Shown: positions 4,095-56,437 of the stretch, piece by piece
Position numbering within the stretch: the stretch's first letter is position 1
Layout of the letters: each line of letters begins with the position of its first letter
Assembly: GCA_963575745.1 (NCBI GenBank)
Contig: CAUYUJ010000086.1
Coordinates: 62,001 to 118,562 of the forward strand
Direction of reading: 5' to 3'
Length of the DNA stretch: 56,562 nucleotides
Origin: Prorocentrum cordatum
Lineage: Eukaryota
Program-made: the position numbers and the translations under genes
The notes under the pieces: generated by a model
The model's database searches: none
Seen by the model: the letters and a program-made list of their open reading frames with translations, nothing else
Told to the model about the DNA's origin: nothing

Positions 4095-8725
<4,631 letters not shown>

Positions 8726-36058: not shown

Positions 36059-39000
36059 TCGCTCCGATCAGCGCGCGTGACCACCCGCTCCACGGTCACG
36101 AAGAGCACCGGCGGCGATCGCTCCCAGCGATTGCCCGTATACACCCTGATGCCATGACAGACCCCGGCCGCCTCCCTCTGCGCACGACTGAGGTGTGCGT
36201 GCGCCGGACATCCTTGACCTGGCCCGCCAATATGCCTCAATTCCAGTCGGATCAAATCCTCCAGATCGCAGGCCCCCCGGTGGTCGGGGCCGAGCAATTC
36301 GGAAGGGACCAGCTTCAAGCGCGAATCAATCACCCCCGTGTCCGAACTTGCCCGGCACACGTCGCATCGCCTCCGCTGCCGCAACGCAATGCCGCAAACG
36401 TGCTGCTGGAGCGCAGTGCGCGCACCGTGATGCGGTGTCGGTACCTGATATCCAGCCTCGGTGACAGCACGAAGGGCGGCCAGGAAGAACTCTGACGCGT
36501 CGCATTGCTTCGGTCTCCCTTGCTGATCGAATTCTGTGAATTCTCGCTGACCGAAAAGCCCCGCGCGCGCGGCAGTAGCGAGCGGCGCGACGGCGTCGAC
36601 CCCCACGCCCTGGACAGAGAGAGCCGCGGCCTGAGCTCCGAGCGCACACACCGGGCAAGTTTCTGTGTTCAAAGGGCAATTCTGGCCGTGCTCGTGGAGA
36701 AGCCGACGGAAGGGAGCCAGGCGCAGCAGCACCTGCGCGACTGCGCTCACGAAGCAAGTATTGCCGAGGTTTGCGATGCCCACGCCAGAGCCGTGGCCGC
36801 AGTGCCACTGCAGCTCCCTGGTGACATCCTCCTGGGACACGCCGTAGGCTGCCATGCACAGATCCCGGTCCAGCGGGAGCAGCTCTGGCGGCTCTGCACC
36901 ATCGCCAACAGTCGCCGCCGTGCGAAACATGTCCCCCCAAAGATCCCTCGGCACTACGGCGCCCCTACCAGCGCCGCGGCCGCCACCCGCGCGCCCGCGC
37001 CCCCGCGAAACAGCGCTCCCCGTCGACGATGCCGCCGCCGCATCTCCGGTCCCCGTCGCGTCGCCGCCGCGGCCGCGGCCCCTGCCCCGCCCCGCAGGCC
37101 CAGCGTCCGGCGCAATGTATGCCGGCGGCACCGTCAGAGCCTGGCCCGGGCGCAGCGCGTGCGAGGGCAGAGGCGTATGCACAGACGCCGCAGGGGCCGC
37201 CTCCCCGTCCGAAGGAGCTGATCCGTCGTCGTCGTCGTCGTCGCCCGCCCCCTCACCGACGCCCGCCGAGCTCCCCGCGTCACGAGACGGGCCCAGCGGC
37301 GACGGCGGCGGCACCGGCGGCGGCGCGGGCGCCGAGCTCGACTCCTGGGCGCCCCGTGCGGCGGGCCCATCCCCCACGTCCCAGCCGTAATCCTGCGCCC
37401 ATTGCTTCGCGATTACGAAACTCTCCCCCATCTTTTTCTCAAAGCGTTGGACCCCTTCGCGGACGTACTGCGGCGGGCCCCGCTGCAGGATGTCCCAGGG
37501 CGGCAGGTTGTAGACGAGCACGCGGTGGGCCACGCGAACGCGACTGAGCATGACGTACAGGTGCAGCCACCAGTCATCGGCGCCCATGTTCATGGGCTTC
37601 TGGAGCACCATGGTGGCCGCATCCATACCCAGGCCCTGCGCAGTCTGCACGGTGCGAACTTTCTCTGGCAGCAACGGGATCTGGTACCTCGTAACCTTCA
37701 CCTTCCGAAGCTTTCGCTCGCCATCGTCGTCGTAGTGATGATTCCACTCCCAGGACGCCCTGTGCGGCGCGATCTGCACGACCCCTTGCCCGAACCCAAA
37801 GTCCTTCTTGAGGCCATCAAACTCGACGAGGACACCGCGCGGCAAACGCTTGCATCGATAATAACCGAGCCGGTGGGCGTCGTGAAGCTTCTTTTCGCGC
37901 CAATCCGCGTCCGGCGTCTCGAACTCCTGCGGGTGGAACCTCACGTCCTTGACTACCCCCACGGCGTCCTGCACGATCTGGTGCTTCGCCGACAACTTCA
38001 CGTTCAGCCGCACACGCATGCCGATGTACAGCGGGCACATGCCGATGAGGTGACCAGTGTTGTTCACGTTCGGCACCTGCAGCATGGCCTTGTAATGCTC
38101 CTCAACGAAGTCCCTGTTTGGAGGCAGGTCCACGGCCTGCACGTACAGCAGCATCTGCCCTTTATCCCTGGCCTCTCGCACGGCCCGATACTGCATCTGC
38201 CTGTGCACGGCCTCCCAGGCGATGCCCATCTCGAACCCGTCCTTGACATGGGGGTCCTGCAGCCGCTTGTCGTTCTTACCGGGTCGGACCACCCACCCTT
38301 GCACCACCATTTTCTGCTCGGCCGTAAACTTCTTGCCCTGCCTCATGGTCTTCAAGAACCCGGGCATGAAGGGGCAGGGCGCGTGCGGAGTAACGAGACG
38401 GTCCTTGAAGCGGTGCGTCTCGTACAGAAACATGGCGTGGGTGACACCGTCCAGGAACATGGACTGCCCATTGCGGACGTGAATCGGCGCCTCGGGCGAC
38501 TCACGCTGCAGCAAGGAAGACCTTCTGCCCTTGCCGCTCACCGGCCCCAGCTGATAAAAATCCCCCAGGAACATGACAATCGGAACCTTCCCGAACATGT
38601 GCCCCCGCGCCATGTACAGGTTCACATCGCAATTATACTTAGCCTTACGGGCTTTGCACATGCGAAACGATGCAGCGCCGAGAAGCTGGGGCGGCACCAT
38701 GGACACCTCCTCCACGATGACGGCCTTGAGGTCGTTCATGCGGTCCACGATGTCATCGACTTTCTGCCCCGAGAGCCTAGCGATGGTCATGGCCTGCTGG
38801 CCGCTCAGCCCGAAGCCGCTGTGGATCGTCTCCCCCCCGATGACGCGCGCAGCGCTGTTCGACGAGGCCACGGCGATCTCCGATCCCGCGCCGAACACCT
38901 CGTTGAGCAGACGTCGCAGCAGTTTCACCACCTCCGTCTTCCCCGTCCCGCCCTCCCCGTGCAGCAGGAGAGCCATCTGCTCCACCGGCTTGGGGCTTTT

Positions 39001-42000
39001 TCCGCTGTCCACATCTTGCTGGTATGCCACGATGGCCTCCACCTGGCCCACGACCAGGGCGACCACCGCCTTCTGCTCCTTATTGAACGTCACGGGGTTG
39101 TCCGCCCTGGTCGCCCACTCGTTAAACAGCCCCTCCGCGATGTCGCGCGCCCGCCGCGGAGGCTCCGCGTCGCCGGCAACCGCGGGCGGCGGCGGCCGAC
39201 CAGGCACGAGCACGGCAGGCGCCGAACCCGCGAGGCCGCTCCGCCCGTCGCCATCCCCAGGCAAGCCCTCAGCTCCCTTTTTCCTGTATCGGAACGCCTC
39301 CTTCTGCTGTGCTTTGCCCTCCTCGAACTGAGAGTCGCCCAAGTCGAGACCGCAGAAGCCCGTCTGCGTTCCAGTACTCGCGGCAGCAGGCTGAGGCTTA
39401 TGGTCTTTCGCATAGCCCTCAAGGAAGATATTCTTATAGACCAAGCTTTGCGACGACCCACGAATCTGCTCCAACTGGGCCACCGCGGGCACCTGGCTAT
39501 CCGGCACGGCGAACGCGGGCATCTGTCGGTGCGCCGCCCACGCTTCGTCCGCCTCGCCCTCGTCCACCTCCTGAGCCAAACCGTCAGGCGCTCCGCCGCC
39601 GGCGCCCGCCCCCTCCTCCTCGTCCGCCTCCCCGGCAGGCCGATTCCCCACTGCCTGCAGCTCAGCAGACTCCTCGAAATCCTTGGCCTCCGGACGGATC
39701 TTGATTCGCGGCCGCCCTTTCGCCTCCGCCTCCACGTCGAGGTTCGTCGCGACCTGGACGGTCCAGCGTGCCATGAACTCGGCGGCGCTGGGTTGCTGTG
39801 CAAAATGGCCCGGGCCCTCCTCTGAGCCGCGTTTCAGATCAATGTCCTCGATCGTGAACCACTTTCCAGCTCGCCGCTCGCACTCCTCGTACTGCCTGGA
39901 CAACGCCACCTGCTTCGCCCACCACTCCTCCCAGGCAGGCCGATGCTTCCCGACCGCGTTGACACCGGCCCTGTAGGGCGCCCAGGCCGCAGCCCCCTTC
40001 TCAGCCGGCTGCAACGGACGGAAAATCACAGACTTGAACAGCGCGTTCACCTCTGGGTCTTTCTCCTTCGAAGGCATCGTGAAGCCGAAGAACTTGGGCA
40101 CCCTGAACGGCGCGCCGACGCGGAGCTTCTGCACTCGGGAGGCGGCGGCCGGGTGCGTGTCCGCGAACGCGTACGTCTCGAAGTCCTGCGGGTCGAAGTG
40201 GAGCGGGTTGGCCTGCGCGGTGTACACGTACATGGCGTAATGGTACATGCCCATGGACTTCAGGGGCTCCCTGTCGCCGCGATGCAGCCAGTCCATCTTC
40301 ATGTCGTGGTCCAGCCGCGCGCTGTATTCGACACCCTGCTGCTGCTCCTGCTCGGGCTGCCCCCCCCCAGCAGCACCGGCAGCCGCGCCCTCCCCGACAA
40401 CGCCGTCGACGACACGGGCGTGCAGCGTTGCGCGCGCCTCGTCCAGCGCATCCATGACACCGCCGCCCCCCTCGCCGTCCACTTCTCCCGCGGCCGGCTG
40501 GTCCACCTCGATGTGGTCTGCGCGCGGGTCGGTCCAGAAGTCGTCCTTTTTCTGATGAACGGCGGAGCTTGCCTGGAACGCCAGCGCCACGATCCCCTTG
40601 CAATACAGAGTCCAGGTGTCATGGGAGCAATAGCACTCGTGGCCATACTGCATCTGGAACATCATCTCGGGCAGCTTCTTCAGGAGCGCCCGGTGCGAGC
40701 TGGTCGTGAGCTTGATGACAGTTCGCCTGGCAGAGTCGAGCACTCCGCCCCAGCCGCTGCGACGAGCGGCAGCAGCGGCCCGGGCCCCGTCGACGTCCTC
40801 CTCGCCCTCCGCCTCCGCCGCCTCATCCGCCTCCCGCTCCGCCTTCTGCTGGAGTCGGAGCCACTCCAACCCGGTGCTCTGCGCGTGCAGCACTCCGAGG
40901 TCTCCCGCGATCGGCCCCGCCTTGGTCGTGTAGTCCGTCTGGTAGTGCGCCATATTGATGGCGTCCATGAACACGGCCTCCAGCGAGTGCAACACGTGCT
41001 CCCGCAGGCTGCCGGGCGGACCGCTGCCGCTCGCGCCAGCAGCTGCGGCGGCGGCGGGCGACGCGGGCGCGCTCGATGCAGGGCTGCCAGACGCCGCCGC
41101 GCGCGACGCGGCGCGGCCTGGCGCCCGCGACCTCGGCTCTGTCTCGACGGCTGATTCTGGCAGCTCGCGCTCCGCGCGCCGGTCGCTGTAGTAGCCCAGG
41201 CCCTGCTCCCCCTTCTTGAACACGAACCCGGGCCGGCTGCCGTCGTAACACGAAGCCGCGCTGAACCCAGCGATGTCCTCGAATTCCGGCGTCGGCGGAG
41301 GCGGCGGATCCAAGCCATACGCATCGGCCAAATCCCACGGCTCGTCATCCTCTTCTCTGAAGCCCCAGATATCCCCCGCGTTCGGATCGTCCATCGTGGT
41401 CGGCGCCCCGCCGAGCAAACCTCCTCCCCTGGGCAGGCCGAGGCGGCGCCCCACGGGCACGCGCCCGCCCCCCGCCGCAGCCGCGCGCGCCGCCCCCTCG
41501 GCCGCCCCGCCCCCGCCCTGCGCTGCGGCCGACGCCCCGGAACCCGTGGAACCTCCGCTCTGCCCAGTGCCCTCGTCGCAACCGGTGCCGCCAGTCCCGG
41601 CGCCAGCCAGCGCGTCCGATGCCTCGCCGACAGGCTCGGCGAACGCACCGGGCTCCGGAGGCGGCGGCACAACAGGGTCGCTGGCGGGCGCGCCCCCGAC
41701 GCTGTCGTCGCCCGGCAGGTCGAGCACCACGCGGTCCAGGCACTGGACGTCCAGGTTGCTCCGCAGACACACCTGGCCCACAGGGTTCGTGCTCCCGTGG
41801 TACGGGTGGTACCGCACCACGTCGACGCGACCAGCTCTGCCGTACCGGTTGCAGCGGTGCGGCCACGGGCCGTAGCCTTCAGCCGGAACGTCGTCCAGAT
41901 CCAGGCGCTCGCCAGGAGGGTTCCACTCCCCCTCCTCCAACGGACCGCACGCGTACTGAACCTTCGCATCTTCCGGAAGCACCAAATCCTTCCCCTTGCG

Positions 42001-43338
42001 CAGGCGCCGCCAGACGAAGGCGGCGGCAGGACGCTTCCTGGACGGGTGGCTGTAGACCGCAGTCTCGTACTCGTGGTAGAAGCCGAGCCGGCACACCTTG
42101 CAGTGCTGAGGCACATCGTCGTTCGTCTTGTGCTTCCAGCACGTGGGACCGCACCTGTGCAGGTGGCCACGGATGATACACTTGCGCGCGTCCCGCGCGA
42201 AGCAGCGCGCCCAGGTCCGCGCCTCATCCCCCGGGCACTCAGCAAAGTGCATGGCCGCGGCGCCGTCCGCGCGCACCACGCGGTACGCAGGCTTGCGGCG
42301 GTACTGCGGCTGCAGCGTCACGTGCGCACCCGTGAGAGGCTCTCCAAATACCGCCGGGTACTGTGCCCGCTGCTCATGGGGATCGGGCTCTGGATCTGCC
42401 AGCGGCGCGAACGGGCGCTGCCGGAGCGGACCCTCTATTGCGGGCTGCTGCTCCAGCATCGCCCGCTCCTCCACGAGATCGACGTTCATCATGGCCGCAA
42501 CCTGATTCCGCAGCTCTTCTGTGGACAGTTGGTTGTCAGCACGGACGGAGCGGCGGCCCTCTTCGTACGCCCTCTTGCACAACTTCCCGAGCTGACGACG
42601 CGAGGCGCCAGCGATGGTATCGTACTTCAATTGGAGGTCGCTCTCCTCTCGCTTCCCGTCCGCGAACGCGAGACGTCGATCCCGCGGGCCGAGCGGAAGC
42701 GGCGGCAGACGGTCCGGCCCGTCCAAGCCCAGCTGCCGGCCCACCTCCTCCGCCGCGTCGAACTGCACGCTGCCGACCCTGGCGAGCACGGCCTCCCTCC
42801 ACCTCCTCAGACGCTCCTCGAGGCCTTCGACGTCCCCCGCGCGCAGCTTCGCGAGGAACGCGCCGGTCATCGGGTGCAGGCGCCACAGGTGGATGTGCGG
42901 ATGGATGCCGCCGCGCCCCTGCGACTCCACGGGTCCGAAGAACGCGCGGACGAGCCCGAACGCTCCACACGCCCCCGTGGCGGCCACGCCGTCGGAGACG
43001 CCCGTGGCCCCGCGCTGCCGCGTGACGCCGACGACATGCTCCAGGAACAGTTCCAGCATGAGGTTCGTGACCATGGCCTGCGACACCGGGTCAGCGGCCA
43101 CCCGCCGCAGCATGTCCCGCGTTGAGGGCATCACGGGAGCAGTCTCCTCCAGCAGCCGCCATCGCTGTACGGAGGCGCCCTCGTACATCAGGGACACCAT
43201 CAGGTTCCGAGTGTCCGCGATGTTCGGCGTCGTGAACACCAGGGGAGGCCCGAAGAGCCGGGTGTAGCTGGTACTGATGTGCCGCAGCGTGGTCCGGTGC
43301 GCGTCGGACCCGACGACATCACGGTTGCTGAGCAGCAT
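35914..43338 (-). CDS. Helitron Rep (HUH endonuclease) + Pif1 helicase + USP Cys-box
   Basis: Rep: LVFTTPN, ESQGRGGIHPHIHLW (42883-42927), HRCGPTC..CRLGF, NLDVQ, YQTDYTTK. Pif1: GEGGTGKT (38935-38958), GETIHS, EEVSM, GDFYQLGPV, RYQIPL..TVQTAQG, YVMLSR. USP: GIANLGNTCF, QCDASEF. Confidence 0.92.
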   Translation of the reverse strand: MLLSNRDVVGSDAHRTTLRHISTSYTRLFGPPLVFTTPNIADTRNLMVSLMYEGASVQRWRLLEETAPVMPSTRDMLRRVAADPVSQAMVTNLMLELFLEHVVGVTRQRGATGVSDGVAATGACGAFGLVRAFFGPVESQGRGGIHPHIHLWRLHPMTGAFLAKLRAGDVEGLEERLRRWREAVLARVGSVQFDAAEEVGRQLGLDGPDRLPPLPLGPRDRRLAFADGKREESDLQLKYDTIAGASRRQLGKLCKRAYEEGRRSVRADNQLSTEELRNQVAAMMNVDLVEERAMLEQQPAIEGPLRQRPFAPLADPEPDPHEQRAQYPAVFGEPLTGAHVTLQPQYRRKPAYRVVRADGAAAMHFAECPGDEARTWARCFARDARKCIIRGHLHRCGPTCWKHKTNDDVPQHCKVCRLGFYHEYETAVYSHPSRKRPAAAFVWRRLRKGKDLVLPEDAKVQYACGPLEEGEWNPPGERLDLDDVPAEGYGPWPHRCNRYGRAGRVDVVRYHPYHGSTNPVGQVCLRSNLDVQCLDRVVLDLPGDDSVGGAPASDPVVPPPPEPGAFAEPVGEASDALAGAGTGGTGCDEGTGQSGGSTGSGASAAAQGGGGAAEGAARAAAAGGGRVPVGRRLGLPRGGGLLGGAPTTMDDPNAGDIWGFREEDDEPWDLADAYGLDPPPPPTPEFEDIAGFSAASCYDGSRPGFVFKKGEQGLGYYSDRRAERELPESAVETEPRSRAPGRAASRAAASGSPASSAPASPAAAAAAGASGSGPPGSLREHVLHSLEAVFMDAINMAHYQTDYTTKAGPIAGDLGVLHAQSTGLEWLRLQQKAEREADEAAEAEGEEDVDGARAAAAARRSGWGGVLDSARRTVIKLTTSSHRALLKKLPEMMFQMQYGHECYCSHDTWTLYCKGIVALAFQASSAVHQKKDDFWTDPRADHIEVDQPAAGEVDGEGGGGVMDALDEARATLHARVVDGVVGEGAAAGAAGGGQPEQEQQQGVEYSARLDHDMKMDWLHRGDREPLKSMGMYHYAMYVYTAQANPLHFDPQDFETYAFADTHPAAASRVQKLRVGAPFRVPKFFGFTMPSKEKDPEVNALFKSVIFRPLQPAEKGAAAWAPYRAGVNAVGKHRPAWEEWWAKQVALSRQYEECERRAGKWFTIEDIDLKRGSEEGPGHFAQQPSAAEFMARWTVQVATNLDVEAEAKGRPRIKIRPEAKDFEESAELQAVGNRPAGEADEEEGAGAGGGAPDGLAQEVDEGEADEAWAAHRQMPAFAVPDSQVPAVAQLEQIRGSSQSLVYKNIFLEGYAKDHKPQPAAASTGTQTGFCGLDLGDSQFEEGKAQQKEAFRYRKKGAEGLPGDGDGRSGLAGSAPAVLVPGRPPPPAVAGDAEPPRRARDIAEGLFNEWATRADNPVTFNKEQKAVVALVVGQVEAIVAYQQDVDSGKSPKPVEQMALLLHGEGGTGKTEVVKLLRRLLNEVFGAGSEIAVASSNSAARVIGGETIHSGFGLSGQQAMTIARLSGQKVDDIVDRMNDLKAVIVEEVSMVPPQLLGAASFRMCKARKAKYNCDVNLYMARGHMFGKVPIVMFLGDFYQLGPVSGKGRRSSLLQRESPEAPIHVRNGQSMFLDGVTHAMFLYETHRFKDRLVTPHAPCPFMPGFLKTMRQGKKFTAEQKMVVQGWVVRPGKNDKRLQDPHVKDGFEMGIAWEAVHRQMQYRAVREARDKGQMLLYVQAVDLPPNRDFVEEHYKAMLQVPNVNNTGHLIGMCPLYIGMRVRLNVKLSAKHQIVQDAVGVVKDVRFHPQEFETPDADWREKKLHDAHRLGYYRCKRLPRGVLVEFDGLKKDFGFGQGVVQIAPHRASWEWNHHYDDDGERKLRKVKVTRYQIPLLPEKVRTVQTAQGLGMDAATMVLQKPMNMGADDWWLHLYVMLSRVRVAHRVLVYNLPPWDILQRGPPQYVREGVQRFEKKMGESFVIAKQWAQDYGWDVGDGPAARGAQESSSAPAPPPVPPPSPLGPSRDAGSSAGVGEGAGDDDDDDGSAPSDGEAAPAASVHTPLPSHALRPGQALTVPPAYIAPDAGPAGRGRGRGRGGDATGTGDAAAASSTGSAVSRGRGRAGGGRGAGRGAVVPRDLWGDMFRTAATVGDGAEPPELLPLDRDLCMAAYGVSQEDVTRELQWHCGHGSGVGIANLGNTCFVSAVAQVLLRLAPFRRLLHEHGQNCPLNTETCPVCALGAQAAALSVQGVGVDAVAPLATAARAGLFGQREFTEFDQQGRPKQCDASEFFLAALRAVTEAGYQVPTPHHGARTALQQHVCGIALRQRRRCDVCRASSDTGVIDSRLKLVPSELLGPDHRGACDLEDLIRLELRHIGGPGQGCPAHAHLSRAQREAAGVCHGIRVYTGNRWERSPPVLFVTVERVVTRADRSECTTDALCAFLRFCGLWMPSASTISLGSLCIRAKARRAAIIMRVQPWV

Positions 43339-43371
43339 GCTGCGCAGCGCGCTCTTGACGTTCCGGGGCAG

Positions 43372-43565
43372 CCCTCGAGGCCCAGGGCCTGCTTGATGCC
43401 CGCCCCCCTGCCGAGCACGGCCACGACCTGCGCCAGATCCTCCGGCGTCAGTGCGGCGAGGTCCGCGATGCTTTCCCCCAGACGCTGCTTGCGCACGAAT
43501 AACCTAGCCGACTGAATGATAGCCTTTCTGCGCCAGAGGCAATACTGGGCCGTGAGCAGGTTGCG
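43372..43565 (-). CDS. Bridging segment between two frameshifts of the Helitron polyprotein
   Basis: RNLLTAQYCLWRRKAIIQSARLFVRKQRLGESIADL...LEG links RWRRH (upstream ORF) to LPRNVKSALRSMLLSN (downstream ORF). Confidence 0.75.
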
Positions 43566-46500
43566 TGGCGACGCCAGCGCGGCACGGGCGACTCAGACGC
43601 GGCGGGCGCCCGCGCAGCGTCGGGCGCGGGCGCCCGCGCAGCGTCGGGCGCCGAGACGTCGTCGGGGACCTCGTACTCGAGCTCCTCGCGAGCCATGAGG
43701 CACCTGCACCACTCGTCGTACGTCAACTTCGCCTCCCTGTCGAGTCCGAAGACGCCGTCGCCGTAGGGAAACGCGACGGGGTCGAAAGCACTCCAGAAAC
43801 CGGGGGAGAACATGCTGACAGGCTCGGTTCCAGTGGGCACGACGACCCGCACCGCGCGCCTCGCCCCCCCGCCCTCAGCGCCCCCGGCCGGCGCGCCGCC
43901 GCCGCCGCCGCCGCCACCGGCCGCGCGTTTCCCGGCGACTCCCGGAGGAGGCCGCGTGGCCTGAATCTTCTGCTCCGTCTGCTCCAGCTTCTTCGTGAGC
44001 GCCTCCTTGTTGCAGTTGGTGAGCGCCTTCGCAGCCTTGTGGGCCTCTTTCGCGGCTTCCGCCAAGCGCAGGTCGGAATCTCGGTCCTGGAAATTCTCCA
44101 TGTCGTCGAACTGCCGCGTCAGTGCCTCCACACGCCGCTTCTCGCGCGCAATCACCTCCGCCTTCTGGAGGCTGAGGTGCACGGTCTGCCACTGCTTGTC
44201 CAGATCGGCCAGCATGTCGGCGTCCGCGACGGCGGCGCAGTACTCGCCCTCCTCGACACCCTCGCCGCCCTCTCCCTCACCAGCCTCGCCCTCGTCGCCC
44301 TCTGAATCCTCCCCGCCAGCGCCAGCCGCGTCCTCACCGGTGGGATCCCCGCACCCGCCCCCTGCCTCGCCCCCGCCGTCAGCCGCCGCGTTCGCTTCGC
44401 CCTCCGCGCTCGCTGCGCCTGCACTCGTCCGCTTCGGCGGGGCCGAGCCCGCGCCGGGCTGCACGGCATCGGCCGGGCCCTCCTGGCGAGCGTCGCCGCC
44501 CTTACCCCCCACGGCCACGCACGCCGCGAGACAGCGAGGCAGGCCCAGGAGCGAGGAGCCGTCGCCATCGCCGTCGCCCTCGGGGTCCGCAAAGTTTTGC
44601 GCGGCCTCTTCGTCCCACCGCACCGCGGCGTACTGCTCGTTCGTGTCGCGGAGGTACTCGTAAGCGCGCTTGAAATCGGCGAGGGGCACGCCGAGCTCCT
44701 CCAATAGCGCCTTCTGCAGGGTGGCGGGGTCGGACCCCGCGAAGACAATCTGCACGAACTCGACGAGGTCGCTCTCCCGCGGCGGCAGCGACAGCACCTG
44801 CCGGCCGCCGTCCGCCTGCGGGAACGCCACGAAGTTCCCCACGTACGCCTTGATCTTCTGGTCGATCGGAGCCCACTCACCAGAGTCGGCCTTGCAGTTG
44901 AACCGCCGCACGATGCCCCGCGCGATGGGCAGCAGAAGCTTCGCGCCCAGCGTGAGATTCCGCAGCGGCGGTGGCAGCCGACCGATCCAGAGATCGTTGG
45001 CCAGCGCGCAGGGCGGCATCGTGGGCAACCTCTTGGAGAGCGCGCCGTGACACCCTGCGCAGATGGGCACCTTCTGCTTCGCGTCGGCCACGAGCACCCC
45101 GTCTGACTCGCGCCTGTCAATCTTGAAGCACTTCTTGTGCAAGAGCCACAGCTTCCCGTCTGGGCCAGGGTCGCGCACTGCGGACGCCTCCAGCTCCTCG
45201 AGGGGGATGCCGCCCGGGCGCTCGACGCCGTTGGGGCCCTCGCGCACGAAGCGCCACCGGGCGTGGTACCGTGCCGGGTCCAGCAGCGCGTGGGCGCGCT
45301 GCCGCTGCGTCAGGCGCATGGCCTGCGCCTGCGCGCCCGCGGCCTCGGATGCCTCTCCCCTCGCCGCCTCGAGCTCGGCGCGCGCGGGCGGCTTCGGCAC
45401 CTGGTCGCAGAGCAGCGAACGCTCCCCGGCGCCGTCCGGCTGCTGCCAGAAGTGCACGCGCTGCAGCTCGTCCGCCCAGTGGAGACGAGCGCAGACGCAG
45501 CACGCGACCCTCGAGCGCACGGCGCGGCGACTCTGCCCGGGCTCGGGCCCCTCGACGTCCGACGCCGCCGGCGCAGCGCCCAGCGCGTCCAAGTCCACGG
45601 GCGGCATGTCCACGCCCGCGGGCGGCACGGCCCCGTCCGCGCCTGGCGGCTTCCACCAGGCGCGCGGCGCGTCCGGCGCGGCAGCGGCGGCGGCGGCCTC
45701 CCCCGAATCGGCGGGCGCTGCGCAGGCCGGCCAGTCGTGAGACCCCGTGACGAGGTGCTCAGAGAAGGCCTCCACGCACTGCCGCCACTCCTGGGGCCTC
45801 ACGGGCCGCACGTCGTCGTCCTGCTGGGGCCACTGCTCGGCCAGGTAGAACAAGCGCTTCCTATACTCCGGCCACCCGTGGTGCTTTTCGTGCACGTGCG
45901 TCATGAAGCCGGCATGCGTGGCGAAGTTCTTGTCGCAGAGGCGGCACGGGAACGGCGGGAGAGCCTCCGGGGCCTCTTTAAATGCCCGCAGAGGACGGCG
46001 CTCGCCACACGGGAGGGCCACATACTCGGGCTGGAGCCTGGGCACGCGCGCCTTGCGAGCGGCAGCGATGGCCGGGGTCGGCGCGGGCGGGGCGCCGCCG
46101 GCATCCGTCTCGCGCTTCCGCGCCTCCTTCACGGCCAAGCCATACCGTTCCGGGCACTCGCGCGTCAGGGAACTGTGGCGCTGGTCCGGGTCCCACTCCC
46201 CAAAAGGTCGCTGCTCGGGTCTGCCGTGGCTCCCACAGAACTGCCCTTCGCCTTTGCAAGAATGCCGGCACTGCCCGAGCACGTGCACGCCCCGGTGCGG
46301 GTGCCAGACGCGCGCGACGCACCTGCCAGCGACGCACGGCGCGGGGTCCAGGAGCCAGGCCGGCAAGGTGCCCTCCTCGCTCACGTGGGGGTCATCCAGA
46401 GCCACGTTCACCTCCACGTCCCCTGCCTTCACTGTCTTCCCTCTGAGACGCTCCTCCTCTTCCTTCCGCAGCCGCTCCTGCTGCAACCGCTCCTGGTCCC

Positions 46501-49500
46501 TTCTCGCCGCCCCGCGAGTCCGCGGCCCTGGGCCCTCGGGGGCTTGCCTCTTGGGTCCGCCGCCGAGCAGCCGACCCGCGCCCCCGCCCGCGCCCCCGTC
46601 GCCGTCGCCGCCCGCGCCACCGTCGCCCGGCCCCTGCGCACCAGAGCCCGACCCCGACGCTGGTCCACCGTTCGCACCGCTGCCCGAAGAGGACCCGCCG
46701 CCGCCGCCGCCGCCGCCCCCGGAAGAGTCGTCGCCGCCGCCCCCTCCTCCCACCACCTCATCCCCGCACCCCGCCAGCCGCAGCCATTGGCTGCATGTCC
46801 GGTCCAACCAGATGCGCACGAATTCCTGCGAATACTTCGTCGCCACCCTTGCAACACCCCGCGCGAGCTTCGCTTCCTTGAAATCGGGCTCCCCGCGCCG
46901 ATCGGCGAACGCGTCCGGCCAGACACCGCCGTGACGGGCACGGAAATCGTCGAGGGCAATCAGAACGTCCTTATCATTCTTTGCGGCCGCGTCGTCCTTC
47001 TCCACCGCGGCGAGCAACGCGGGATCCCTCTCGAGCGCAGCGAGCAGGCGCTGCTGGTCCAGGTCCCAGTGCCCCGCGGCGAGGTTCCACGTCAAGCCCA
47101 CGCCCGCCCGCTCCCGGCGCACGAAAGCCGCCACCTGCCGCGCCGCCTGAGGCTTCAGCTTGAGGAGCTGCTGCCAGACGGGCCACTCGGGGATCGCCTG
47201 CGGCTTCAGGTCCGCCAAGTACACGGGCGGCTTCAGGTCGCCACTCGGGGACCGCCGCGCGCCCTCGGCGGCCTCCACCCTGTACATTATGTCGCGGTCG
47301 CCCTCGAGCTGCTGCAAGCGCGCGGCCAGGGCGTCGCCCATGCGAGCGACGCCGCCGCGCGCGCGGCACCAGGCCCGCAACAGCCAGAGCTCCGCGGGCA
47401 CGTCGCCCGGCTCGCCCGTGTAGTAGCCGCGCCGCCCCTGGGGGAACGTGTCGGCGGCGAAACCCGACTCCACGGCCTCGGAGAAGAACGCACGGCCAGG
47501 GCCGGCCCACGCTTTCGGGATACCGAAGACGCGCGGCCAGGGCGCCAGCCTGCTCCCGTCGGGCCCCGCGCGCTGGTACCACGGCTCCAGAGCGTGTCGC
47601 TGGTCCAGCTGCACGCTCGCTTCGCAGTTGTCCTGGTGGAAGCACTCGTCCTCCAGCAGCAGACCACGGAACTCAGCGAATCCGTTCTCCCCCCCCGCCG
47701 CGCACCGGGCCGCCTGCGCGCGCTTCCTGGCGCGGGCGCGCTCCGCCTCCACCGCCTCGCGCTTCATCACCGCCTGGCTAGGCAGCTTCTTCGGCGCGAA
47801 ATGCAACCTCTTACACCAACCATCGACCTCTCCGTCGGTCAGCTCCCGCGCGCTCTCGAAATCCTGCTGGCACTTGTAGCAGAGGAAATCAGAGGGCAGG
47901 CGCAAGAGCACGCTGCCGTGCACCGGGGCGCCAGGAGCGCCGTCCAGCCGCGCCTGCTCTGCGTACCGCGCCTGGCGCGTCGCCTCGCGCACCTCCCCCG
48001 GCCTCCAGACCTCGCCCTCGGCGGCGTCCAGCGACGGCAGCAGCGGCGCGCGGACCGGCCCCGGCTTGCCGTCGTCGCGGAGCGGCGCGCGCCAGCGCAG
48101 CGGCTCGCGACGGCAGCAGACCCAGACCTCGCGCTCCACGCCCTCCTGTTCGAGCCGTTGGAGCAGGCGCTGCCACTGCTCCCAGGGCTCCCGCACGTCC
48201 GAATTGGGCACGGGCGTGCGGCGCAGCAGCTCGGGGTCGGCCCTGCGCAGGCGCCGGATCGCCTGCGACCGCGCCACGTTGTCCTGCGCCGTGGCCGCGT
48301 CGAGCCCCAGGGCGACGTCCCGCAGCCGCTCCAGCTCCGCCACCTGCCGCTGCAGCTCCGCGTCCGGGGCCTCCCCCGCGAAGAACCTGGGCGCGACGGG
48401 CACATACGACAGCATGCAGGTCGCCAGCACGTACCGCACGAAATCCTCGTGCTCCTCGTCGATGCCCGTGGGGAGCTCCTCCTCGTCCGCCATGCCCCGC
48501 GGCTCCTCCTCCGCGTCCGCCATCTCTGCGTCCCCCTCCTCCTGCTCCCTCCGCTCCTCGTCGCCCTGCTCCTGCTCCTGCTCCCCCTGCTCCTGCTCCT
48601 CCTCTTCCTGCTCCTCTTCCTCCTGCTCCTCTTCTTCCTCCTCCTCCTCATCCTCCTCCCCGAGCGCCTCGCGGCGCGGCTCTTCGGCCGCCGGGGCGGC
48701 CAAGGCTTCGCGGACCCGCCTGTCTTTGGCCAGGGCAACGAAGACGTCGAGCCCGAGCGCGGCGCCCTGCAGCGCGTCCACGTGCTCCAGCAGGGCGGCC
48801 ACGAGCGCGGTCTTCACCCGCCGAGCCAGCGCCCTGTCTGCCCTCTGGAACCTAGCGAACATATCCGGCGTGACCTCCGCGCGCCGCTCCTCCGCGAGGC
48901 AGTCGGCCGGGTCCTCCTCTTCCTGCTCCTCCTCCTCCTCGCCGAATGCCTCCTCCTCCTCCTCGGCCGCGCGCCGCAGCAGCTCCAGCCGCTGCGCCTC
49001 GAGCGCCCGCGCCTCCGCCTCCCTGCTCTCGGCATCGCGCCGCGCGGCGGCCGCCTGCGCGTACTTCTGCCGCAGCGCGTCGAAGGTCGCGGGCGCGTTG
49101 AAGGACGCCGCGCGGCCCTTCCGCTCGTGGTTCGCGATGAAGTTCGCCAGCCTGCGCTCCTCGTCATCCTCCGCCTTCTCCACCGGCATCCTCTGGTTCT
49201 TCTCGCACCACGCCTCCAGCGCCTGGACCTGGATGAGATCCGCGTCCAGCGCCGCCTCCAACTGCGCTCGCCAGTGCTCGTCCAGGCCCTGGCGGCCGTG
49301 CGCGCGCACGTTGCCGATCCACATCGCGAGCAGACGCTCCCGCGCATCGTCGTCATGACCGCCGCTCCTGGGCGCGCGCCCGTGTGTCTCCACGAAAAGC
49401 TTTACCTCGAGCACACGCTGCTGCGCCGTCCGCCGCTGCCACATGCCCCTGTTCACCAAACGATCGAACCTCTCCTGGTTGTCATCATCCAGCTTGTTCT

Positions 49501-51460
49501 GGCCAGTGGTGACATTGTGGATCCACTTCGCGAGCTTCTTCTCCTCCTCGTCCTCTGCCCCCTGCTTCGGCAGCTCGTCGAGCACCTCCACGTGCTCCTC
49601 GATGCGGTCCAGCATCGCGCGGGCGCGCGCGCGCCTCTCCTCCCGCCGGTCCACGAGCCCGTCGAACCGCGCGCGCCGCTCGGGGGTCAGCACATGCTGT
49701 CCATCGCACACGTGATGGACCCACTGTCCAAGCGCGGACTCCTTCTGCGCTGGAACGCAGCCGTGCTCGTCCACGTGCCTCGCCAGCTCGCCCAGCATCT
49801 CCTCGGAATGGTCCCGCGATCGCGCCTCCGCGCCAGCATGCCGCACACCGCTCATGTCGATGCCCAGGTGCGCCGCGAGCGCGGCCCTGTACACCTCAAT
49901 GTCCAATCGCTTGCGCTCCGAGCCAACCCAGCGCCGCGAGGACGGCACTCCAGCCTCGCGGTCGCCCCGCAATCGCGCAGCCAACTTTTCCAATTCAGCG
50001 AAACTCATCCGGGCCAACGCCGCCGCGTCCACTCCGTCGCGCGCGCTCCCGCGAGCGCCCTGCACCCCTGCGGCACCCTGCTCCACGCGGCGCTTCGGCG
50101 CCCCGCCCCGCAGCGCGCCGCGCCCCGCAGCCGCGCGCGGTGACCGCGAAACCGAGCTCGAACGCCCGTGAGCGACGACGCGACACCACGGCGCGCTCTC
50201 GGCTCCCCCCCACTCCACGTCACCAGAACCCACCGACTCCTCCACCGCGCACACGTGGCCACCGTCGAGCCACAGCAGAGCACCGGCGCAGAAGCCCGCC
50301 GCGTGCCCCAGCGCCCACGCCACACGCCCTCCCTCCTGCGCTCCGAACGCTTCCACAGATTCCGCAGAGAACACGCGCACATGCAGGAAGCGGGAGCGCA
50401 AGTGCTGGACGACGACCTCAAGATTCCAGCGCTCCACCAGCGACCCACAGGCGCCCGAACCCTCGTGGTTCTGACACGCGCGACCGAAATGCCCCGCGGC
50501 GTCCCCCCCCACGAGCTCAGCCACTGCGCTCTGCAGGCACTTCCCACGCCACTCGACGGGAGAACTAGCGCGCGCGCGGCGGTTCCCCCGCCCGCGTCCG
50601 CCGCGCGGCCGTGGGCGCGGTGGGCGAGCGGCACCGAATGCACCAACAGACATGGGCACGGCGCCGTCCTGCGTCGCCCCGCTGAACCCCGCCGGACACG
50701 CTCCGAGAGCGATCATGGCGCAGGCAGCGCGCACGGCCAGGTCCCCAACGAAAACCTTGGACTCCCGCGCAGCCCGGCACTTCGCCCCGCCGATGCCGAC
50801 GCCCGGCGAGAACCGGCGCGCACAGACGCGGCGGCCGCCGCACGTCCGTGCCGAGAGCCCGTAGAGCACGCAGCAGAACCACCTGGCGGTGACGACCGCG
50901 GCCTCACGATCGGCCTGCTCGGGCGCGTCTGGGAGCTCCCGCGCGAACACATCTCGCTGCCGCCACCAGCGCGCCGCCGCGACCTTCCTCGTCATCACTA
51001 CTCTGCCGTCTTCCTGGGGCGGGCACACGCCGAGAGCGACGAGAACGCAGGCTGCGCGCAGGGCCGCGTCACCCACGGTCCACGACGACGCGTCGGGCGC
51101 AGGCGCGGCGGCGGCGCGGGGCGCGCGCGCCTTCGGCTGCTCCGAGTCGACGGCACGGGCCGCGCGCGCGATCAGAAACTGCTCCACGCGCCCGTTCTTG
51201 CAAGCCGCCCCCCGCGCGGTGCGCCCAGACGAGACCCGCCTCTGGCGACGCGTCGCGCTGCAGTAAGCGGGGCACGACGGGGAGCAGCACGCGGCGTGCA
51301 ATCTGCTCGTTCCGCTCGGCCGCCGCCTCCGTCCGCCGCGCCCACTCCGCCTCCCGCCGCGCGCACCGAACCCGCCGGCACGACGCGCGGCGCGCTTTCC
51401 GGAGCGATTTCTGCTCGCGCTCCGCCGCCTCCAGCGCAGAATCATCGACGACCTCCTCAT
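43448..51460 (-). CDS. Helitron polyprotein N-terminal part: papain-like Cys/His module, helicase-associated (HA)-like repeats, acidic tracts, C2H2 finger, DUF6570-like region
   Basis: About four HA-like repeats, e.g. ELARHVDEHGCVP..ESALGQWV (~49100-49810). CRLCDKNF..HVHEKH (~45890-45950). CAGC..MPPCALANDLWIGRLP (~44960-45060). FDPVAFPYGDG (~43760-43790). True start uncertain: the overlapping frame 51069..51497 looks more protein-like. Confidence 0.8.
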   Translation of the reverse strand: MRRSSMILRWRRRSASRNRSGKRAARRAGGFGARGGRRSGRGGRRRRPSGTSRLHAACCSPSCPAYCSATRRQRRVSSGRTARGAACKNGRVEQFLIARAARAVDSEQPKARAPRAAAAPAPDASSWTVGDAALRAACVLVALGVCPPQEDGRVVMTRKVAAARWWRQRDVFARELPDAPEQADREAAVVTARWFCCVLYGLSARTCGGRRVCARRFSPGVGIGGAKCRAARESKVFVGDLAVRAACAMIALGACPAGFSGATQDGAVPMSVGAFGAARPPRPRPRGGRGRGNRRARASSPVEWRGKCLQSAVAELVGGDAAGHFGRACQNHEGSGACGSLVERWNLEVVVQHLRSRFLHVRVFSAESVEAFGAQEGGRVAWALGHAAGFCAGALLWLDGGHVCAVEESVGSGDVEWGGAESAPWCRVVAHGRSSSVSRSPRAAAGRGALRGGAPKRRVEQGAAGVQGARGSARDGVDAAALARMSFAELEKLAARLRGDREAGVPSSRRWVGSERKRLDIEVYRAALAAHLGIDMSGVRHAGAEARSRDHSEEMLGELARHVDEHGCVPAQKESALGQWVHHVCDGQHVLTPERRARFDGLVDRREERRARARAMLDRIEEHVEVLDELPKQGAEDEEEKKLAKWIHNVTTGQNKLDDDNQERFDRLVNRGMWQRRTAQQRVLEVKLFVETHGRAPRSGGHDDDARERLLAMWIGNVRAHGRQGLDEHWRAQLEAALDADLIQVQALEAWCEKNQRMPVEKAEDDEERRLANFIANHERKGRAASFNAPATFDALRQKYAQAAAARRDAESREAEARALEAQRLELLRRAAEEEEEAFGEEEEEQEEEDPADCLAEERRAEVTPDMFARFQRADRALARRVKTALVAALLEHVDALQGAALGLDVFVALAKDRRVREALAAPAAEEPRREALGEEDEEEEEEEEQEEEEQEEEEQEQGEQEQEQGDEERREQEEGDAEMADAEEEPRGMADEEELPTGIDEEHEDFVRYVLATCMLSYVPVAPRFFAGEAPDAELQRQVAELERLRDVALGLDAATAQDNVARSQAIRRLRRADPELLRRTPVPNSDVREPWEQWQRLLQRLEQEGVEREVWVCCRREPLRWRAPLRDDGKPGPVRAPLLPSLDAAEGEVWRPGEVREATRQARYAEQARLDGAPGAPVHGSVLLRLPSDFLCYKCQQDFESARELTDGEVDGWCKRLHFAPKKLPSQAVMKREAVEAERARARKRAQAARCAAGGENGFAEFRGLLLEDECFHQDNCEASVQLDQRHALEPWYQRAGPDGSRLAPWPRVFGIPKAWAGPGRAFFSEAVESGFAADTFPQGRRGYYTGEPGDVPAELWLLRAWCRARGGVARMGDALAARLQQLEGDRDIMYRVEAAEGARRSPSGDLKPPVYLADLKPQAIPEWPVWQQLLKLKPQAARQVAAFVRRERAGVGLTWNLAAGHWDLDQQRLLAALERDPALLAAVEKDDAAAKNDKDVLIALDDFRARHGGVWPDAFADRRGEPDFKEAKLARGVARVATKYSQEFVRIWLDRTCSQWLRLAGCGDEVVGGGGGGDDSSGGGGGGGGGSSSGSGANGGPASGSGSGAQGPGDGGAGGDGDGGAGGGAGRLLGGGPKRQAPEGPGPRTRGAARRDQERLQQERLRKEEEERLRGKTVKAGDVEVNVALDDPHVSEEGTLPAWLLDPAPCVAGRCVARVWHPHRGVHVLGQCRHSCKGEGQFCGSHGRPEQRPFGEWDPDQRHSSLTRECPERYGLAVKEARKRETDAGGAPPAPTPAIAAARKARVPRLQPEYVALPCGERRPLRAFKEAPEALPPFPCRLCDKNFATHAGFMTHVHEKHHGWPEYRKRLFYLAEQWPQQDDDVRPVRPQEWRQCVEAFSEHLVTGSHDWPACAAPADSGEAAAAAAAPDAPRAWWKPPGADGAVPPAGVDMPPVDLDALGAAPAASDVEGPEPGQSRRAVRSRVACCVCARLHWADELQRVHFWQQPDGAGERSLLCDQVPKPPARAELEAARGEASEAAGAQAQAMRLTQRQRAHALLDPARYHARWRFVREGPNGVERPGGIPLEELEASAVRDPGPDGKLWLLHKKCFKIDRRESDGVLVADAKQKVPICAGCHGALSKRLPTMPPCALANDLWIGRLPPPLRNLTLGAKLLLPIARGIVRRFNCKADSGEWAPIDQKIKAYVGNFVAFPQADGGRQVLSLPPRESDLVEFVQIVFAGSDPATLQKALLEELGVPLADFKRAYEYLRDTNEQYAAVRWDEEAAQNFADPEGDGDGDGSSLLGLPRCLAACVAVGGKGGDARQEGPADAVQPGAGSAPPKRTSAGAASAEGEANAAADGGGEAGGGCGDPTGEDAAGAGGEDSEGDEGEAGEGEGGEGVEEGEYCAAVADADMLADLDKQWQTVHLSLQKAEVIAREKRRVEALTRQFDDMENFQDRDSDLRLAEAAKEAHKAAKALTNCNKEALTKKLEQTEQKIQATRPPPGVAGKRAAGGGGGGGGAPAGGAEGGGARRAVRVVVPTGTEPVSMFSPGFWSAFDPVAFPYGDGVFGLDREAKLTYDEWCRCLMAREELEYEVPDDVSAPDAARAPAPDAARAPAASESPVPRWRRHATCSRPSIASGAERLSFSRLGYSCASSVWGKASRTSPH

Positions 51461-51621
51461 GAATCACGGCGTGCTCTGCGAGCAAACAATCCTGCACCCG
51501 GTCGTCCCATGCTCGCGACTTCCGGGCCGGCGCCGAGCGCTCCGCGCACCGCCCCTGCGAACCGCGGCCGCCCCCCGCCCGGGCCCGGAAGCGGGTCCGG
51601 CCCCGGTTCCCCGTCGTCGCA

Positions 51622-51912: not shown

Positions 51913-51965
51913 TGCTGAGCTAAAGCCATGGCTATTGCGGAAGCTCGGACAGGGACGCGGCAGAT

Positions 51966-51998
<33 letters not shown>

Positions 51999-56404: not shown

Positions 56405-56437
<33 letters not shown>

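What the first reader, a model, noticed from the sequence alone, without database searches (positions are those of the whole stretch)
41407..50113. Repeated ubiquitin-like LxGG-[AG]P sites suggest virus-style self-processing of the Helitron polyprotein
Seen: LRGG-APKRR (50102-50113), LLGG-GPKRQ (46559-46570) and LLGG-APTT (41407-41418), each at the end of a Gly/Ala-rich linker. A CLQSAV...GGHVCAV Cys/His pair (50537 and 50255) lies just before the first site, and a USP sits at the C-terminus. Known: deubiquitinases and coronavirus PLpro cleave after LxGG. Inference: the element's own protease(s) cut the polyprotein into modules, two of which would start with a basic NLS-like PKR. Caveat: Gly-rich, GC-rich sequence raises the chance rate of such motifs.
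Basis: inference. Interest (0 to 1): 0.72.

Follow-up and report, generated by a model that had tools for sequence, protein, structure and literature searches.

The report
Ubiquitin-tail motifs in giant Helitron protein
A huge jumping-gene protein from a marine microbe carries short motifs that look like the tail of ubiquitin; distant relatives keep two of them, so the protein's own ubiquitin-cutting enzyme may use them to cut it into pieces, but no cutting has been shown.

Summary
They lie in one roughly 5,300-residue Helitron-like polyprotein of the HLE2 type, with DUF6570, Rep, Pif1 helicase and USP. This copy changes frame three times. Within the window alone, LxGG is not enriched: 6 found, 4.8 expected. 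Relatives change the picture. At site 3, L.GG occurs in 10 of 15 lineages that are only 31-67% identical to each other, against 2.45 expected; [LIVM].GG occurs in 13 of 15. At site 2, L.GG occurs in 7 of 11 linkers. The residue after GG is always small. The helicase-USP control linker has the motif in 0 of 7. Site 1 is not kept in its one clear homologue. All 11 lineages whose C-terminus is available carry a USP. Site 3 is not a module boundary: by motif spacing it lies inside Rep, between the HUH and the two-tyrosine motifs. Cleavage is plausible but untested, and the fold and complex tools never accepted a job. USP-carrying HLE2 elements are in print; I found no report of self-processing.

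The parts
43448..51463 (-). Polyprotein reading frame, segment A (stop-to-stop ORF, 2671 aa, P0001): N-terminal Cys/His domain, HA repeats, sites 1 and 2, WRC-like zinc domain, C2H2 finger, DUF6570
35914..43503 (-). Polyprotein reading frame, segment B (2529 aa, P0002): Rep, site 3, Pif1 helicase, first part of the USP
34742..36067 (-). Polyprotein reading frame, segment C (441 aa, P0010): USP His box, then a second WRC-like Cys domain (35186-35272)
43369..43562 (-). Short stretch read in a third frame (RNLLTAQYCLWRRK...GAGIKQALG, which matches the homologues). It is bounded by two single-base frame changes. Contigs of other runs carry one extra base at 43369 and at 43561/43562.
   Evidence: (P0003 430-527 hits 43562-43275)
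36055..36055 (-). Frame change inside the USP. Contigs of runs X2 and X4 carry an extra C behind this position.
50234..50566 (-). N-terminal Cys/His domain (Cys codon 50537-50539, His codon 50255-50257). Homologous to P0063 residues about 100-250. OTU-like by a weak lead only.
   Evidence: no match
50102..50113 (-). Site 1: LRGG, followed by APKRR
   Evidence: not LxGG in P0063
49658..49804 (-). HA (helicase-associated) domain repeat in the module between sites 1 and 2
   Evidence: PF03457, E 1.5e-6
46559..46570 (-). Site 2: LLGG, followed by GPKRQ, at the end of a 58%-Gly linker
44603..45022 (-). DUF6570, which the HELIANO paper calls the marker of HLE2 elements
   Evidence: E 1.4e-18
42883..43362 (-). 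Rep N-terminal part (Pfam Helitron_like_N), ending at the HUH motif GGIHPHIHLW (42883-42912)
41743..41766 (-). Conserved LRSNLDVQ motif, the last conserved Rep block before the variable linker
41386..41418 (-). Site 3: LLGG (41407-41418), followed by APTTMDD. Family-wide motif: hydrophobic-x-G-G-small, then a hydrophobic residue plus an acidic pair within a few residues.
40921..40947 (-). HYQTDYTTK: two invariant tyrosines three residues apart, taken as the Rep catalytic Tyr motif
   Evidence: (Y825 and Y829 invariant in A1)
38509..38973 (-). Pif1-like helicase core (Walker A at 38935-38958)
35819..36783 (-). USP (peptidase C19) domain: Cys box LGNTCFVSAVAQ at 36733-36768, His box SGHYYA at 35933-35950. 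Split by the frame change near 36055.

Best explanation
The window holds one copy, with three frame changes, of a giant Helitron-like element of the HLE2 group. Its relatives encode single open frames of 3,200 to more than 4,500 residues. The order is: accessory modules, DUF6570, Rep, Pif1 helicase, USP-type deubiquitinase. This motif copies the LRGG tail of ubiquitin and sits in otherwise fast-drifting, low-complexity linkers. My best reading is that these motifs are recognition and cleavage sites for the element's own C-terminal USP, acting in cis or in trans. Cutting would give three pieces. The first is an N-terminal accessory module. The second is a middle piece with zinc fingers, DUF6570 and the HUH half of Rep. 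The third is a C-terminal piece that begins with an acidic tail and carries the catalytic tyrosines, the helicase and the USP. Because site 3 lies inside Rep, such a cut would regulate the transposase (license it or switch it off) and would not simply separate modules. Shown here: the motifs, their conservation, the lineage-specific shared variants, and the catalytic motifs of the USP. Inferred: that any peptide bond is cut, by which enzyme, and with what effect.
For: Site 3, the linker between the RxNxDVQ block and the Tyr motif: L.GG is in 10 of 15 lineages against 2.45 expected (Poisson-binomial tail 4.7e-6), [LM].GG in 11 of 15, and [LIVM].GG in 13 of 15 (9.7e-6) (sequences). The 15 lineages are 31-67% identical pairwise in the 165 residues before the linker and have end branches of 0.18-1.09 changes per site. 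Linker lengths run from 80 to 462 residues. In an unbiased count of all 1710 X.YZ patterns present in these linkers, L.GG is the only one found in a majority and ranks second by Poisson tail. GG is invariant in alignment A1. Site 2: L.GG in 7 of 11 linkers against 2.14 expected (4.2e-4), and [LIVM].GG in 9 of 11 (6.3e-4). The residue after GG is G, A, S, T or M in 30 of 33 matches against 12.9 expected; the other 3 are register-shifted copies of the same sites. Variants are shared within a lineage: the window has L[LR]GG[AG]P three times (0.11 expected, 0 of 1500 shuffles), and P0177 has VVGG four times (0.19-0.23 expected, 0 of 1500), three of them in linkers and followed by G, A or S. Control linker between helicase and USP: [LIVM].GG in 0 of 7 (1.7 expected). 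A USP is present in 11 of 11 lineages whose C-terminus is available; all 9 placed in the alignment show a Cys box and a His box, and P0004 (cut short after the Cys box) and P0019 were not aligned. Its nearest solved relatives are USP36 (E 8e-18) and USP2. Precedents in print: SARS-CoV PLpro cuts its polyprotein at LXGG (passage); USP1 cuts itself at an internal Gly-Gly (passage); viral DUBs often process polyproteins at di-glycine sites (passage).
Against: There is no direct evidence of cleavage. The complex and fold predictions that could have borne on it were never accepted. In the window alone LxGG is at chance level. The residue four before the cut is not invariant: Pro in P0019 (PRGG), Asp in L006 (DLGG), Val in P0177 and L009, Cys or Val in L015. 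The USP is of the cellular type; from recall, such enzymes mainly grip the folded body of ubiquitin and cut bare LRGG peptides poorly. No ubiquitin-like fold was found before any site (Pfam). Site 3 lies between HUH and the catalytic tyrosines, so a cut would split the nuclease active site. At site 3 the conserved unit extends past GG to a hydrophobic residue plus an acidic pair (11 of 15; pattern chosen after seeing the data), which a protease site alone does not explain. Site 1 is not kept in P0063. The lineages share ancestry, so the tests show conservation, not repeated independent origin.
Confidence: 0.4

Rival explanations
1. The motifs are conserved short linear motifs that are never cut. 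One version is a Gly-Gly hinge with a hydrophobic anchor and, at site 3, an acidic-hydrophobic docking motif for a host or element partner. Another version is a pseudo-substrate that parks in the USP cleft and tethers or inhibits it.
For: At site 3 the best-kept unit is GG followed within 0-7 residues by a hydrophobic residue and [DN][DE] (11 of 15 against 1.33 expected; pattern chosen after seeing the data), which is more than a protease site needs. The residue four before GG varies. The site lies just before the catalytic tyrosines, where a flexible tether makes mechanical sense and a cut looks risky. No such motif lies between helicase and USP.
Against: Sites 2 and 3 share only the hydrophobic-x-GG-small core, while their downstream contexts differ: basic after site 2 in 6 of 11 linkers as I read them, acidic after site 3. 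Within a lineage the core is shared between sites (window and P0177), as expected when one enzyme reads all of them. The always-small residue after GG fits a protease pocket, although runs of Gly would give the same result.
Confidence: 0.28
2. The sites are cut, but not by the C-terminal USP. Host deubiquitinases could do it. Alternatively, in lineages that have it, the N-terminal Cys/His (OTU-like) domain could act as a leader protease at site 1.
For: Site 1 lies 48 residues after the His of the N-terminal domain. From recall, that is the layout of viral leader proteases. The Atlas feature search, restricted to named clusters, puts P0063 residues 95-250 nearest to OTU clusters (scores 0.82-0.83). 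OTU domains upstream of RepHel in Helitron-like elements are in print (passage).
Against: Atlas scores below 0.9 count as a lead only. Pfam, NCBIfam, PDB sequence and PDB profile searches found nothing. The domain was seen only in the window and in P0063 and is absent from the N-terminus of P0183, whereas sites 2 and 3 are family-wide. P0063 lacks LxGG after the domain.
Confidence: 0.1
3. The motifs have no function. They are by-products of Gly-rich, GC-rich linkers, kept by descent or by composition.
For: Window alone: L.GG 6 against 4.83 expected. In the window's own linkers the chance of at least one [LM].GG is 0.42 for site 3 and 0.60 for site 2. GG alone is present in 10 of 10 site-2 linkers, with 8.3 expected. 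Site 1 has no conserved counterpart.
Against: Low-Gly lineages keep the motif too: for L011 (4% Gly) the chance is 0.047, and for P0004 it is 0.069. The family-wide tails are 4.7e-6 for site 3 and 4.2e-4 for site 2. The control linker has none. The tree spans long branches.
Confidence: 0.08

Closest known systems
Coronavirus papain-like protease (PLpro, nsp3) and its LXGG polyprotein sites
   Same: A protease with deubiquitinase activity (the USP fold is from recall) sits inside the polyprotein it would process. Several sites copy the ubiquitin tail LXGG. PLpro cuts at three such sites (passage of PMC13067793).
   Different: This USP is a cellular-type USP (nearest solved relatives USP36 and USP2), not a PLpro. 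It has no site between itself and the helicase, so it would not release itself. One site lies inside an enzyme domain. The carrier is a DNA transposon, not an RNA virus. Cleavage is unproven.
Human USP1 autocleavage at an internal Gly-Gly (residues 670-671)
   Same: A cellular USP cuts its own chain after an internal ubiquitin-like di-glycine, with regulatory effect (introduction passage of PMC8975806).
   Different: USP1 has a single site inside its own domain, and the cut leads to its degradation. Here there are several sites more than 1,000 residues upstream, in other modules.
HLE2 (Helitron2/Helentron group) elements that carry a UCH domain (HELIANO survey, PMC11417382)
   Same: DUF6570 as the HLE2 marker, and a UCH domain stably included downstream of RepHel (passages). 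The window's element has both.
   Different: The survey found UCH enriched in HLE2 subgroups c and d, which come mostly from lungfish and axolotl. It names DUF6570, Herpes_Helicase, Herpes_teg_N and UvrD_c_2 as sharing RepHel's frame and places the other 17 added domains in separate ORFs, and it did not study function. Here the USP is in the same open frame as RepHel in protein records of 5 lineages (P0003, P0004, P0005, P0007, P0177). The hosts look like marine plankton. Motif conservation is new.
Helentron-encoded VTD and OTU deubiquitinases (PMC9741609)
   Same: Rolling-circle transposons that encode deubiquitinases within the RepHel frame. The zebrafish VTD domains were shown to be active on ubiquitin (passages).
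   Different: A different protease class. The authors propose protection from proteasomal degradation. I saw no self-processing claim in the passages read.
Adenovirus protease and African swine fever virus pS273R (Gly-Gly-X maturation sites)
   Same: The consensus (M/L/I)-x-G-G followed by any residue resembles the motif found here.
   Different: Those enzymes belong to clan CE (Ulp1-like). No such domain was found here by Pfam.

Membership tests
Helitron-like element, HLE2 group | Rep nuclease with an HUH motif | tested here: met
   Pfam Helitron_like_N E 2.3e-9. H-x-H is invariant in 8 of 8 sequences of A1.
Helitron-like element, HLE2 group | Two catalytic tyrosines (Y-x3-Y) downstream of HUH | tested here: inconclusive
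   An invariant Y-x3-Y (HYxxDYxTK) is present, as in Helraiser Y727/Y731. It lies 481-1048 residues after HUH, against 132 in Helraiser. No fold could be made to confirm that it belongs to the same domain.
Helitron-like element, HLE2 group | Pif1-type SF1 helicase after Rep | tested here: met
   Pfam PIF1 E 2.5e-14. PDB hits to Pif1 for P0004.
Helitron-like element, HLE2 group | DUF6570 (HLE2 marker according to HELIANO) | tested here: met
   PF20209 E 1.4e-18; passage.
Helitron-like element, HLE2 group | Element termini, hairpin and target site; mobility | not tested
   Ends not mapped. Only a large palindrome upstream of the ORF was seen. Near-identical DNA occurs in runs of 13 studies.
USP / UCH deubiquitinase (peptidase C19) | Cys box, His box and acidic residue in order; Pfam UCH above cutoff | tested here: met
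   UCH 43.7 bits plus 33.1 bits, cutoff 23.9. Motifs aligned. USP36 E 8e-18 for the L008 relative. In the window copy the domain is split by a frame change.
USP / UCH deubiquitinase (peptidase C19) | Hydrolysis of ubiquitin conjugates | not testable with these tools
   Needs an enzyme assay.
Self-processing polyprotein of the PLpro type | Protease encoded in the same open frame as its substrates | tested here: met
   Protein records of 5 lineages (P0003, P0004, P0005, P0007, P0177) carry Rep, helicase and USP in one chain. The window shows the same order across three frames.
Self-processing polyprotein of the PLpro type | Ubiquitin-tail-like sites conserved among relatives | tested here: met
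   Site 3: L.GG in 10 of 15 and [LIVM].GG in 13 of 15. Site 2: 7 of 11 and 9 of 11. Site 1 is not conserved.
Self-processing polyprotein of the PLpro type | Sites lie at boundaries between functional units, including around the protease | tested here: not met
   Site 3 lies inside Rep. No site between helicase and USP in 0 of 7 linkers. Site 2 does lie between modules.
Self-processing polyprotein of the PLpro type | Cleavage demonstrated | not testable with these tools
   No experiment was possible. Complex prediction never accepted the job.
OTU deubiquitinase (N-terminal Cys/His domain) | Match to the OTU family by sequence or fold | tested here: inconclusive
   No Pfam, NCBIfam or PDB match. 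Atlas named-cluster lead to OTU at 0.82-0.83 for P0063. The Atlas search with the window's own domain gave unnamed clusters. The resemblance of the Cys and His motifs to OTU motifs is from recall.

The most novel reading that the evidence does not exclude
A DNA transposon matures its own polyprotein of more than 5,000 residues the way a coronavirus does. Its built-in USP deubiquitinase cuts at ubiquitin-tail-like hydrophobic-x-GG sites. One cut falls between the HUH metal site and the catalytic tyrosines of the rolling-circle nuclease, so proteolysis would license or shut off transposition.
Probability: 0.33. Interest if true: 0.85.

Novelty: new variant of a known kind. Interest (0 to 1): 0.62.

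Why it matters
Helitron-like elements are known to carry deubiquitinase domains (OTU, VTD, UCH). Their role is unknown, and the only proposal I saw in print is protection from degradation. A conserved ubiquitin-tail motif inside the transposase's own linkers gives a concrete and cheap test: do these enzymes act on the element's own protein? If they do, it would be the first DNA transposon of this class processed like a viral polyprotein. It would also be a case of a cellular-type USP reading linear LxGG sites, and a new way to control a rolling-circle nuclease. The element is widespread in marine plankton data: near-identical DNA occurs in runs of 13 studies, and contigs from RNA libraries match it.

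Tried and rejected
1. Whole-genome search: no genome is held for this window.
2. A second copy of the element inside the window: none found by tblastn.
3. Protein search with P0001 residues 300-1700: no hit, probably because poly-Glu words swamped it. The N-terminal 816 residues found one protein, P0160, which starts after site 1. Site 1 therefore rests on P0063 and, loosely, on P0183.
4. Viral-contig scan with alignment A1: no relative.
5. PDB sequence search with the Rep region found no Helraiser match. P0004 matched only Pif1-type helicases.
6. N-terminal domain: nothing in Pfam, NCBIfam, PDB sequence or PDB profile searches. The first Atlas search gave only unnamed clusters.
7. Does loss of the motif go with loss of the USP? 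The test is not informative, because all 11 lineages with a C-terminus have a USP.
There is therefore no fold of the Rep region or of the N-terminal domain.
9. Complex prediction (USP of P0005 plus its 40-residue site-3 peptide) was never queued. No result exists either way.
10. Earlier notes of this scan: none on this genome or this sequence. Notes found by words concern giant viruses and bacterial operons and did not change my reading.
11. Rows left out of the site-3 count: L002 (identical to P0006); L007 (near-identical to L006); P0008 and P0009 (same 90% clusters as P0175 and P0177); L003, L005, L010, L012-L014 and L016-L018 (they do not reach the linker); L015 (read only afterwards: CVGGG then TT).
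12. Rows left out of the site-2 count: P0051, P0086, P0127 and P0148, which end inside the linker. P0148 ends in ...GGRLLG.
Full report
**What is there.**
The minus strand of 34.7-51.5 kb holds two very long stop-free frames: 43448-51463 (2671 aa, P0001) and 35914-43503 (2529 aa, P0002). Pfam finds the following, in order:
- an HA domain
- DUF6570 (E 1.4e-18)
- Helitron_like_N (E 2.3e-9)
- PIF1 (E 2.5e-14)
- UCH (E 3.3e-11)

The USP His box and a second WRC-like Cys domain lie in a third piece, 34742-36067 (P0010; UCH E 5.6e-8). Between P0001 and P0002, a short stretch in yet another frame matches the homologues. So this copy changes frame three times.

Contigs of other public runs carry one extra base at or beside each of these three places: 36055, 43369 and 43561/43562, the last also in a contig from an RNA library. 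Versions with an open frame therefore exist. Sequence that shares half or more of the sampled words occurs in 14 listed runs. In all, 20 runs from 13 studies hold at least part of it, 6 of them on record as RNA. No second copy lies in the window.

**The observation.**
- LRGG then APKRR at 50102-50113
- LLGG then GPKRQ at 46559-46570
- LLGG then APTT at 41407-41418

The Cys and His codons are also at the stated places. Sites 2 and 3 end Gly/Ala-rich stretches (G+A 0.68 and 0.58 in the 60 residues upstream). Site 1 does so only weakly (0.33, against 0.24 overall).

L.GG occurs 6 times against 4.83 expected, and L.GG[GAS] 3 times against 1.85. Only the full pattern L.GG[AG]P stands out (3 against 0.11; 0 of 1500 shuffles), and that pattern was read off these data.

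**Relatives.**
The searches returned the following:
- A word-indexed search with the Rep region found 7 proteins of 1,890-3,641 aa. Together they show the window's domain set (DUF6570, Helitron_like_N, PIF1, UCH), and 3 of them carry all four.
- The exhaustive search with P0001 residues 1250-2449 found 427 proteins at E up to 0.001.
- Cluster look-ups gave longer versions, up to 4,575 aa.
- One metagenome scan gave 18 loci.

Many of these proteins fill their contigs (for example 3,641 aa on 11,168 nt), so the giant single frame is real in several lineages. All 11 lineages whose C-terminus is available have a USP, and all 9 of them placed in the alignment show a Cys box and a His box. The nearest solved relatives are USP36 and USP2, which are ordinary cellular USPs.

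**Site 3.**
The motif lies in the variable linker (80-462 residues) between the conserved RxNxDVQ block and HYxxDYxTK. I compared 15 lineages. They are 31-67% identical pairwise in the flank before the linker and are separated by long branches (L001 was left out of the tree, and P0087 was added as a distant outgroup).

| Pattern | Lineages with it | Expected | Tail |
|---|---|---|---|
| L.GG | 10 of 15 | 2.45 | 4.7e-6 |
| [LM].GG | 11 of 15 | 2.97 | 2.9e-6 |
| [LIVM].GG | 13 of 15 | 5.14 | 9.7e-6 |

(All.) The departures:
- The two lineages without [LIVM].GG are P0019 (PRGG) and L006 (DLGG).
- P0177 and L009 have Val at that position.
- L015, read afterwards and not counted, has CVGGG.
- Each departure sits next to an LxGG-bearing sister in the tree.

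Of all 1710 gapped patterns present in these linkers, L.GG is the only one found in a majority. Two lineages (L008 and P0008) have the segment duplicated, and GG is kept in both copies of each. The conserved unit extends further: GG is followed within a few residues by a hydrophobic residue and an acidic pair in 11 of 15 lineages (pattern chosen after seeing the data).

**Site 2.**
This site lies in the linker between a conserved domain that ends in xWLxLA and the WRC-like zinc domain. L.GG is in 7 of 11 linkers (2.14 expected, tail 4.2e-4), and [LIVM].GG in 9 of 11. The two linkers without it are P0183 (CAGG) and P0154 (WSGG). A basic cluster follows in 6 of the 11 linkers (window, P0037, P0004, P0175, P0062, P0006) and an acidic stretch in 3 (P0183, P0177, P0019), as I read the printed linkers.

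**Site 1.**
Only P0063 clearly shares the N-terminal Cys/His domain (33% identity over 463 aligned residues). After that domain it has VAG followed by ARTKRRRR, and PGG followed by AED, not LxGG. P0183 has LLGG followed by GKR at a loosely similar place, but it lacks the domain. Site 1 therefore remains unsupported.

**Features that point to one reader of all sites.**
- The residue after GG is G, A, S, T or M in 30 of 33 matches against 12.9 expected. The other three are register-shifted duplicates.
- Within a lineage the sites look alike. The window has L[LR]GG[AG]P three times. P0177 has VVGG four times (0.2 expected), three of them in linkers and followed by G, A or S.
- The helicase-USP linker, used as a control, has the motif in 0 of 7.

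**Where site 3 sits.**
The H-x-H of the HUH motif and a Y-x3-Y are invariant in the alignment. The linker lies between them, just before the tyrosines. In Helraiser the HUH histidines (H593, H595) and the tyrosines (Y727, Y731) are 132 residues apart (passage). Here they are 481-1048 residues apart. So a cut at site 3 would separate the HUH half of Rep from the tyrosines, the helicase and the USP.

**Reading.**
The conserved core copies the ubiquitin tail, and the only protease common to all lineages is a USP. My best explanation (0.4) is recognition and cleavage by that USP. The main rival (0.28) is an uncut linear motif: a hinge, a docking motif or a pseudo-substrate. Weaker rivals are cleavage by another protease (0.1) and no function (0.08 for sites 2 and 3; much higher for site 1 alone).

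Points against cleavage:
- No experiment exists.
- The residue four before the cut is not invariant.
- The USP is of the cellular type.
- The site lies inside Rep.
- An acidic motif extends the conserved unit at site 3.
- No site would release the protease itself.

**Comparison with print.**
- UCH domains in HLE2 elements, and DUF6570 as the HLE2 marker, are reported in the HELIANO survey, which did not study function (PMC11417382; passages).
- Helentron VTD domains are active deubiquitinases. The authors propose that they protect proteins needed for transposition from degradation. They also note that viral DUBs often process polyproteins at di-glycine sites (PMC9741609; passages).
- PLpro cuts at LXGG (PMC13067793; passage).
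- USP1 cuts itself at an internal Gly-Gly (PMC8975806; passage).
- Three full-text searches listed no paper that proposes self-processing of a Helitron protein. I saw only listings and passages, and no supplements.

**Verdict.**
Two of the three sites are conserved ubiquitin-tail-like motifs, and cleavage is a good but untested hypothesis.

Noticed in passing
window 51843-56560: There is a large palindrome just upstream of the polyprotein start: 51843 to about 54230 is repeated in inverted order at about 54240-56560 (arms of 654 nt at 98%, 390 nt at 96%, 183 nt at 99%). By symmetry, a second head-to-head copy of the ORF would begin just past the window end.
   Followed up: no
window 36055, 43369, 43561-43562: Contigs of other public runs carry a one-base insertion at or beside each of the window's three frame changes; at 43561 this includes a contig from an RNA library. 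The window's breaks are therefore specific to this copy or are assembly errors.
   Followed up: partly
window 4140-8825: A 4.6-kb imperfect (ATG)n-like trinucleotide array (about 1,500 units, 72% match, strong GC skew) runs into a 100-N gap at 8726-8825.
   Followed up: no
window 41182-41235; L004: A small motif inside the site-3 linker, RPGFVFKKGEQGLGYYSD, recurs in L004 as RPGCVFKLGARGLGYYTD. Its function is unknown.
   Followed up: no
window 46226-46321 and 35186-35272: A WRC-like Cys-rich domain (CxARxW...GQC...) occurs twice in this polyprotein, once before DUF6570 and once after the USP. P0003 and P0005 have it after the USP. The modules are shuffled between lineages.
   Followed up: no
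P0175, P0008, L011 (site-3 linker): One lineage has an ASCH domain inserted in the site-3 linker, downstream of its LxGG (Pfam). P0019 carries eight DUF4116 repeats upstream of DUF6570. L006 and L009 carry TPR repeats.
   Followed up: partly
P0063 C-terminus: The 1,280-residue record P0063 ends 14 residues after its site-2 LRGG, on a 4,364-nt contig. In that lineage the N-terminal module may be a separate gene product that ends near the site. I could not check whether the end is a true stop.
   Followed up: no
window 45107-50143 (+): A 1,678-codon stop-free frame lies antisense to the polyprotein. I take it to be a by-product of the 70% G+C coding sequence, not a gene.
   Followed up: no
window 27247-27708 and 28021-28355; 51679-51913: Two arrays of a 9-nt repeat lie in opposite orientation (GATCTATGC and TAGATCGCA). 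A (CCT)78 array lies just upstream of the polyprotein frame.
   Followed up: no
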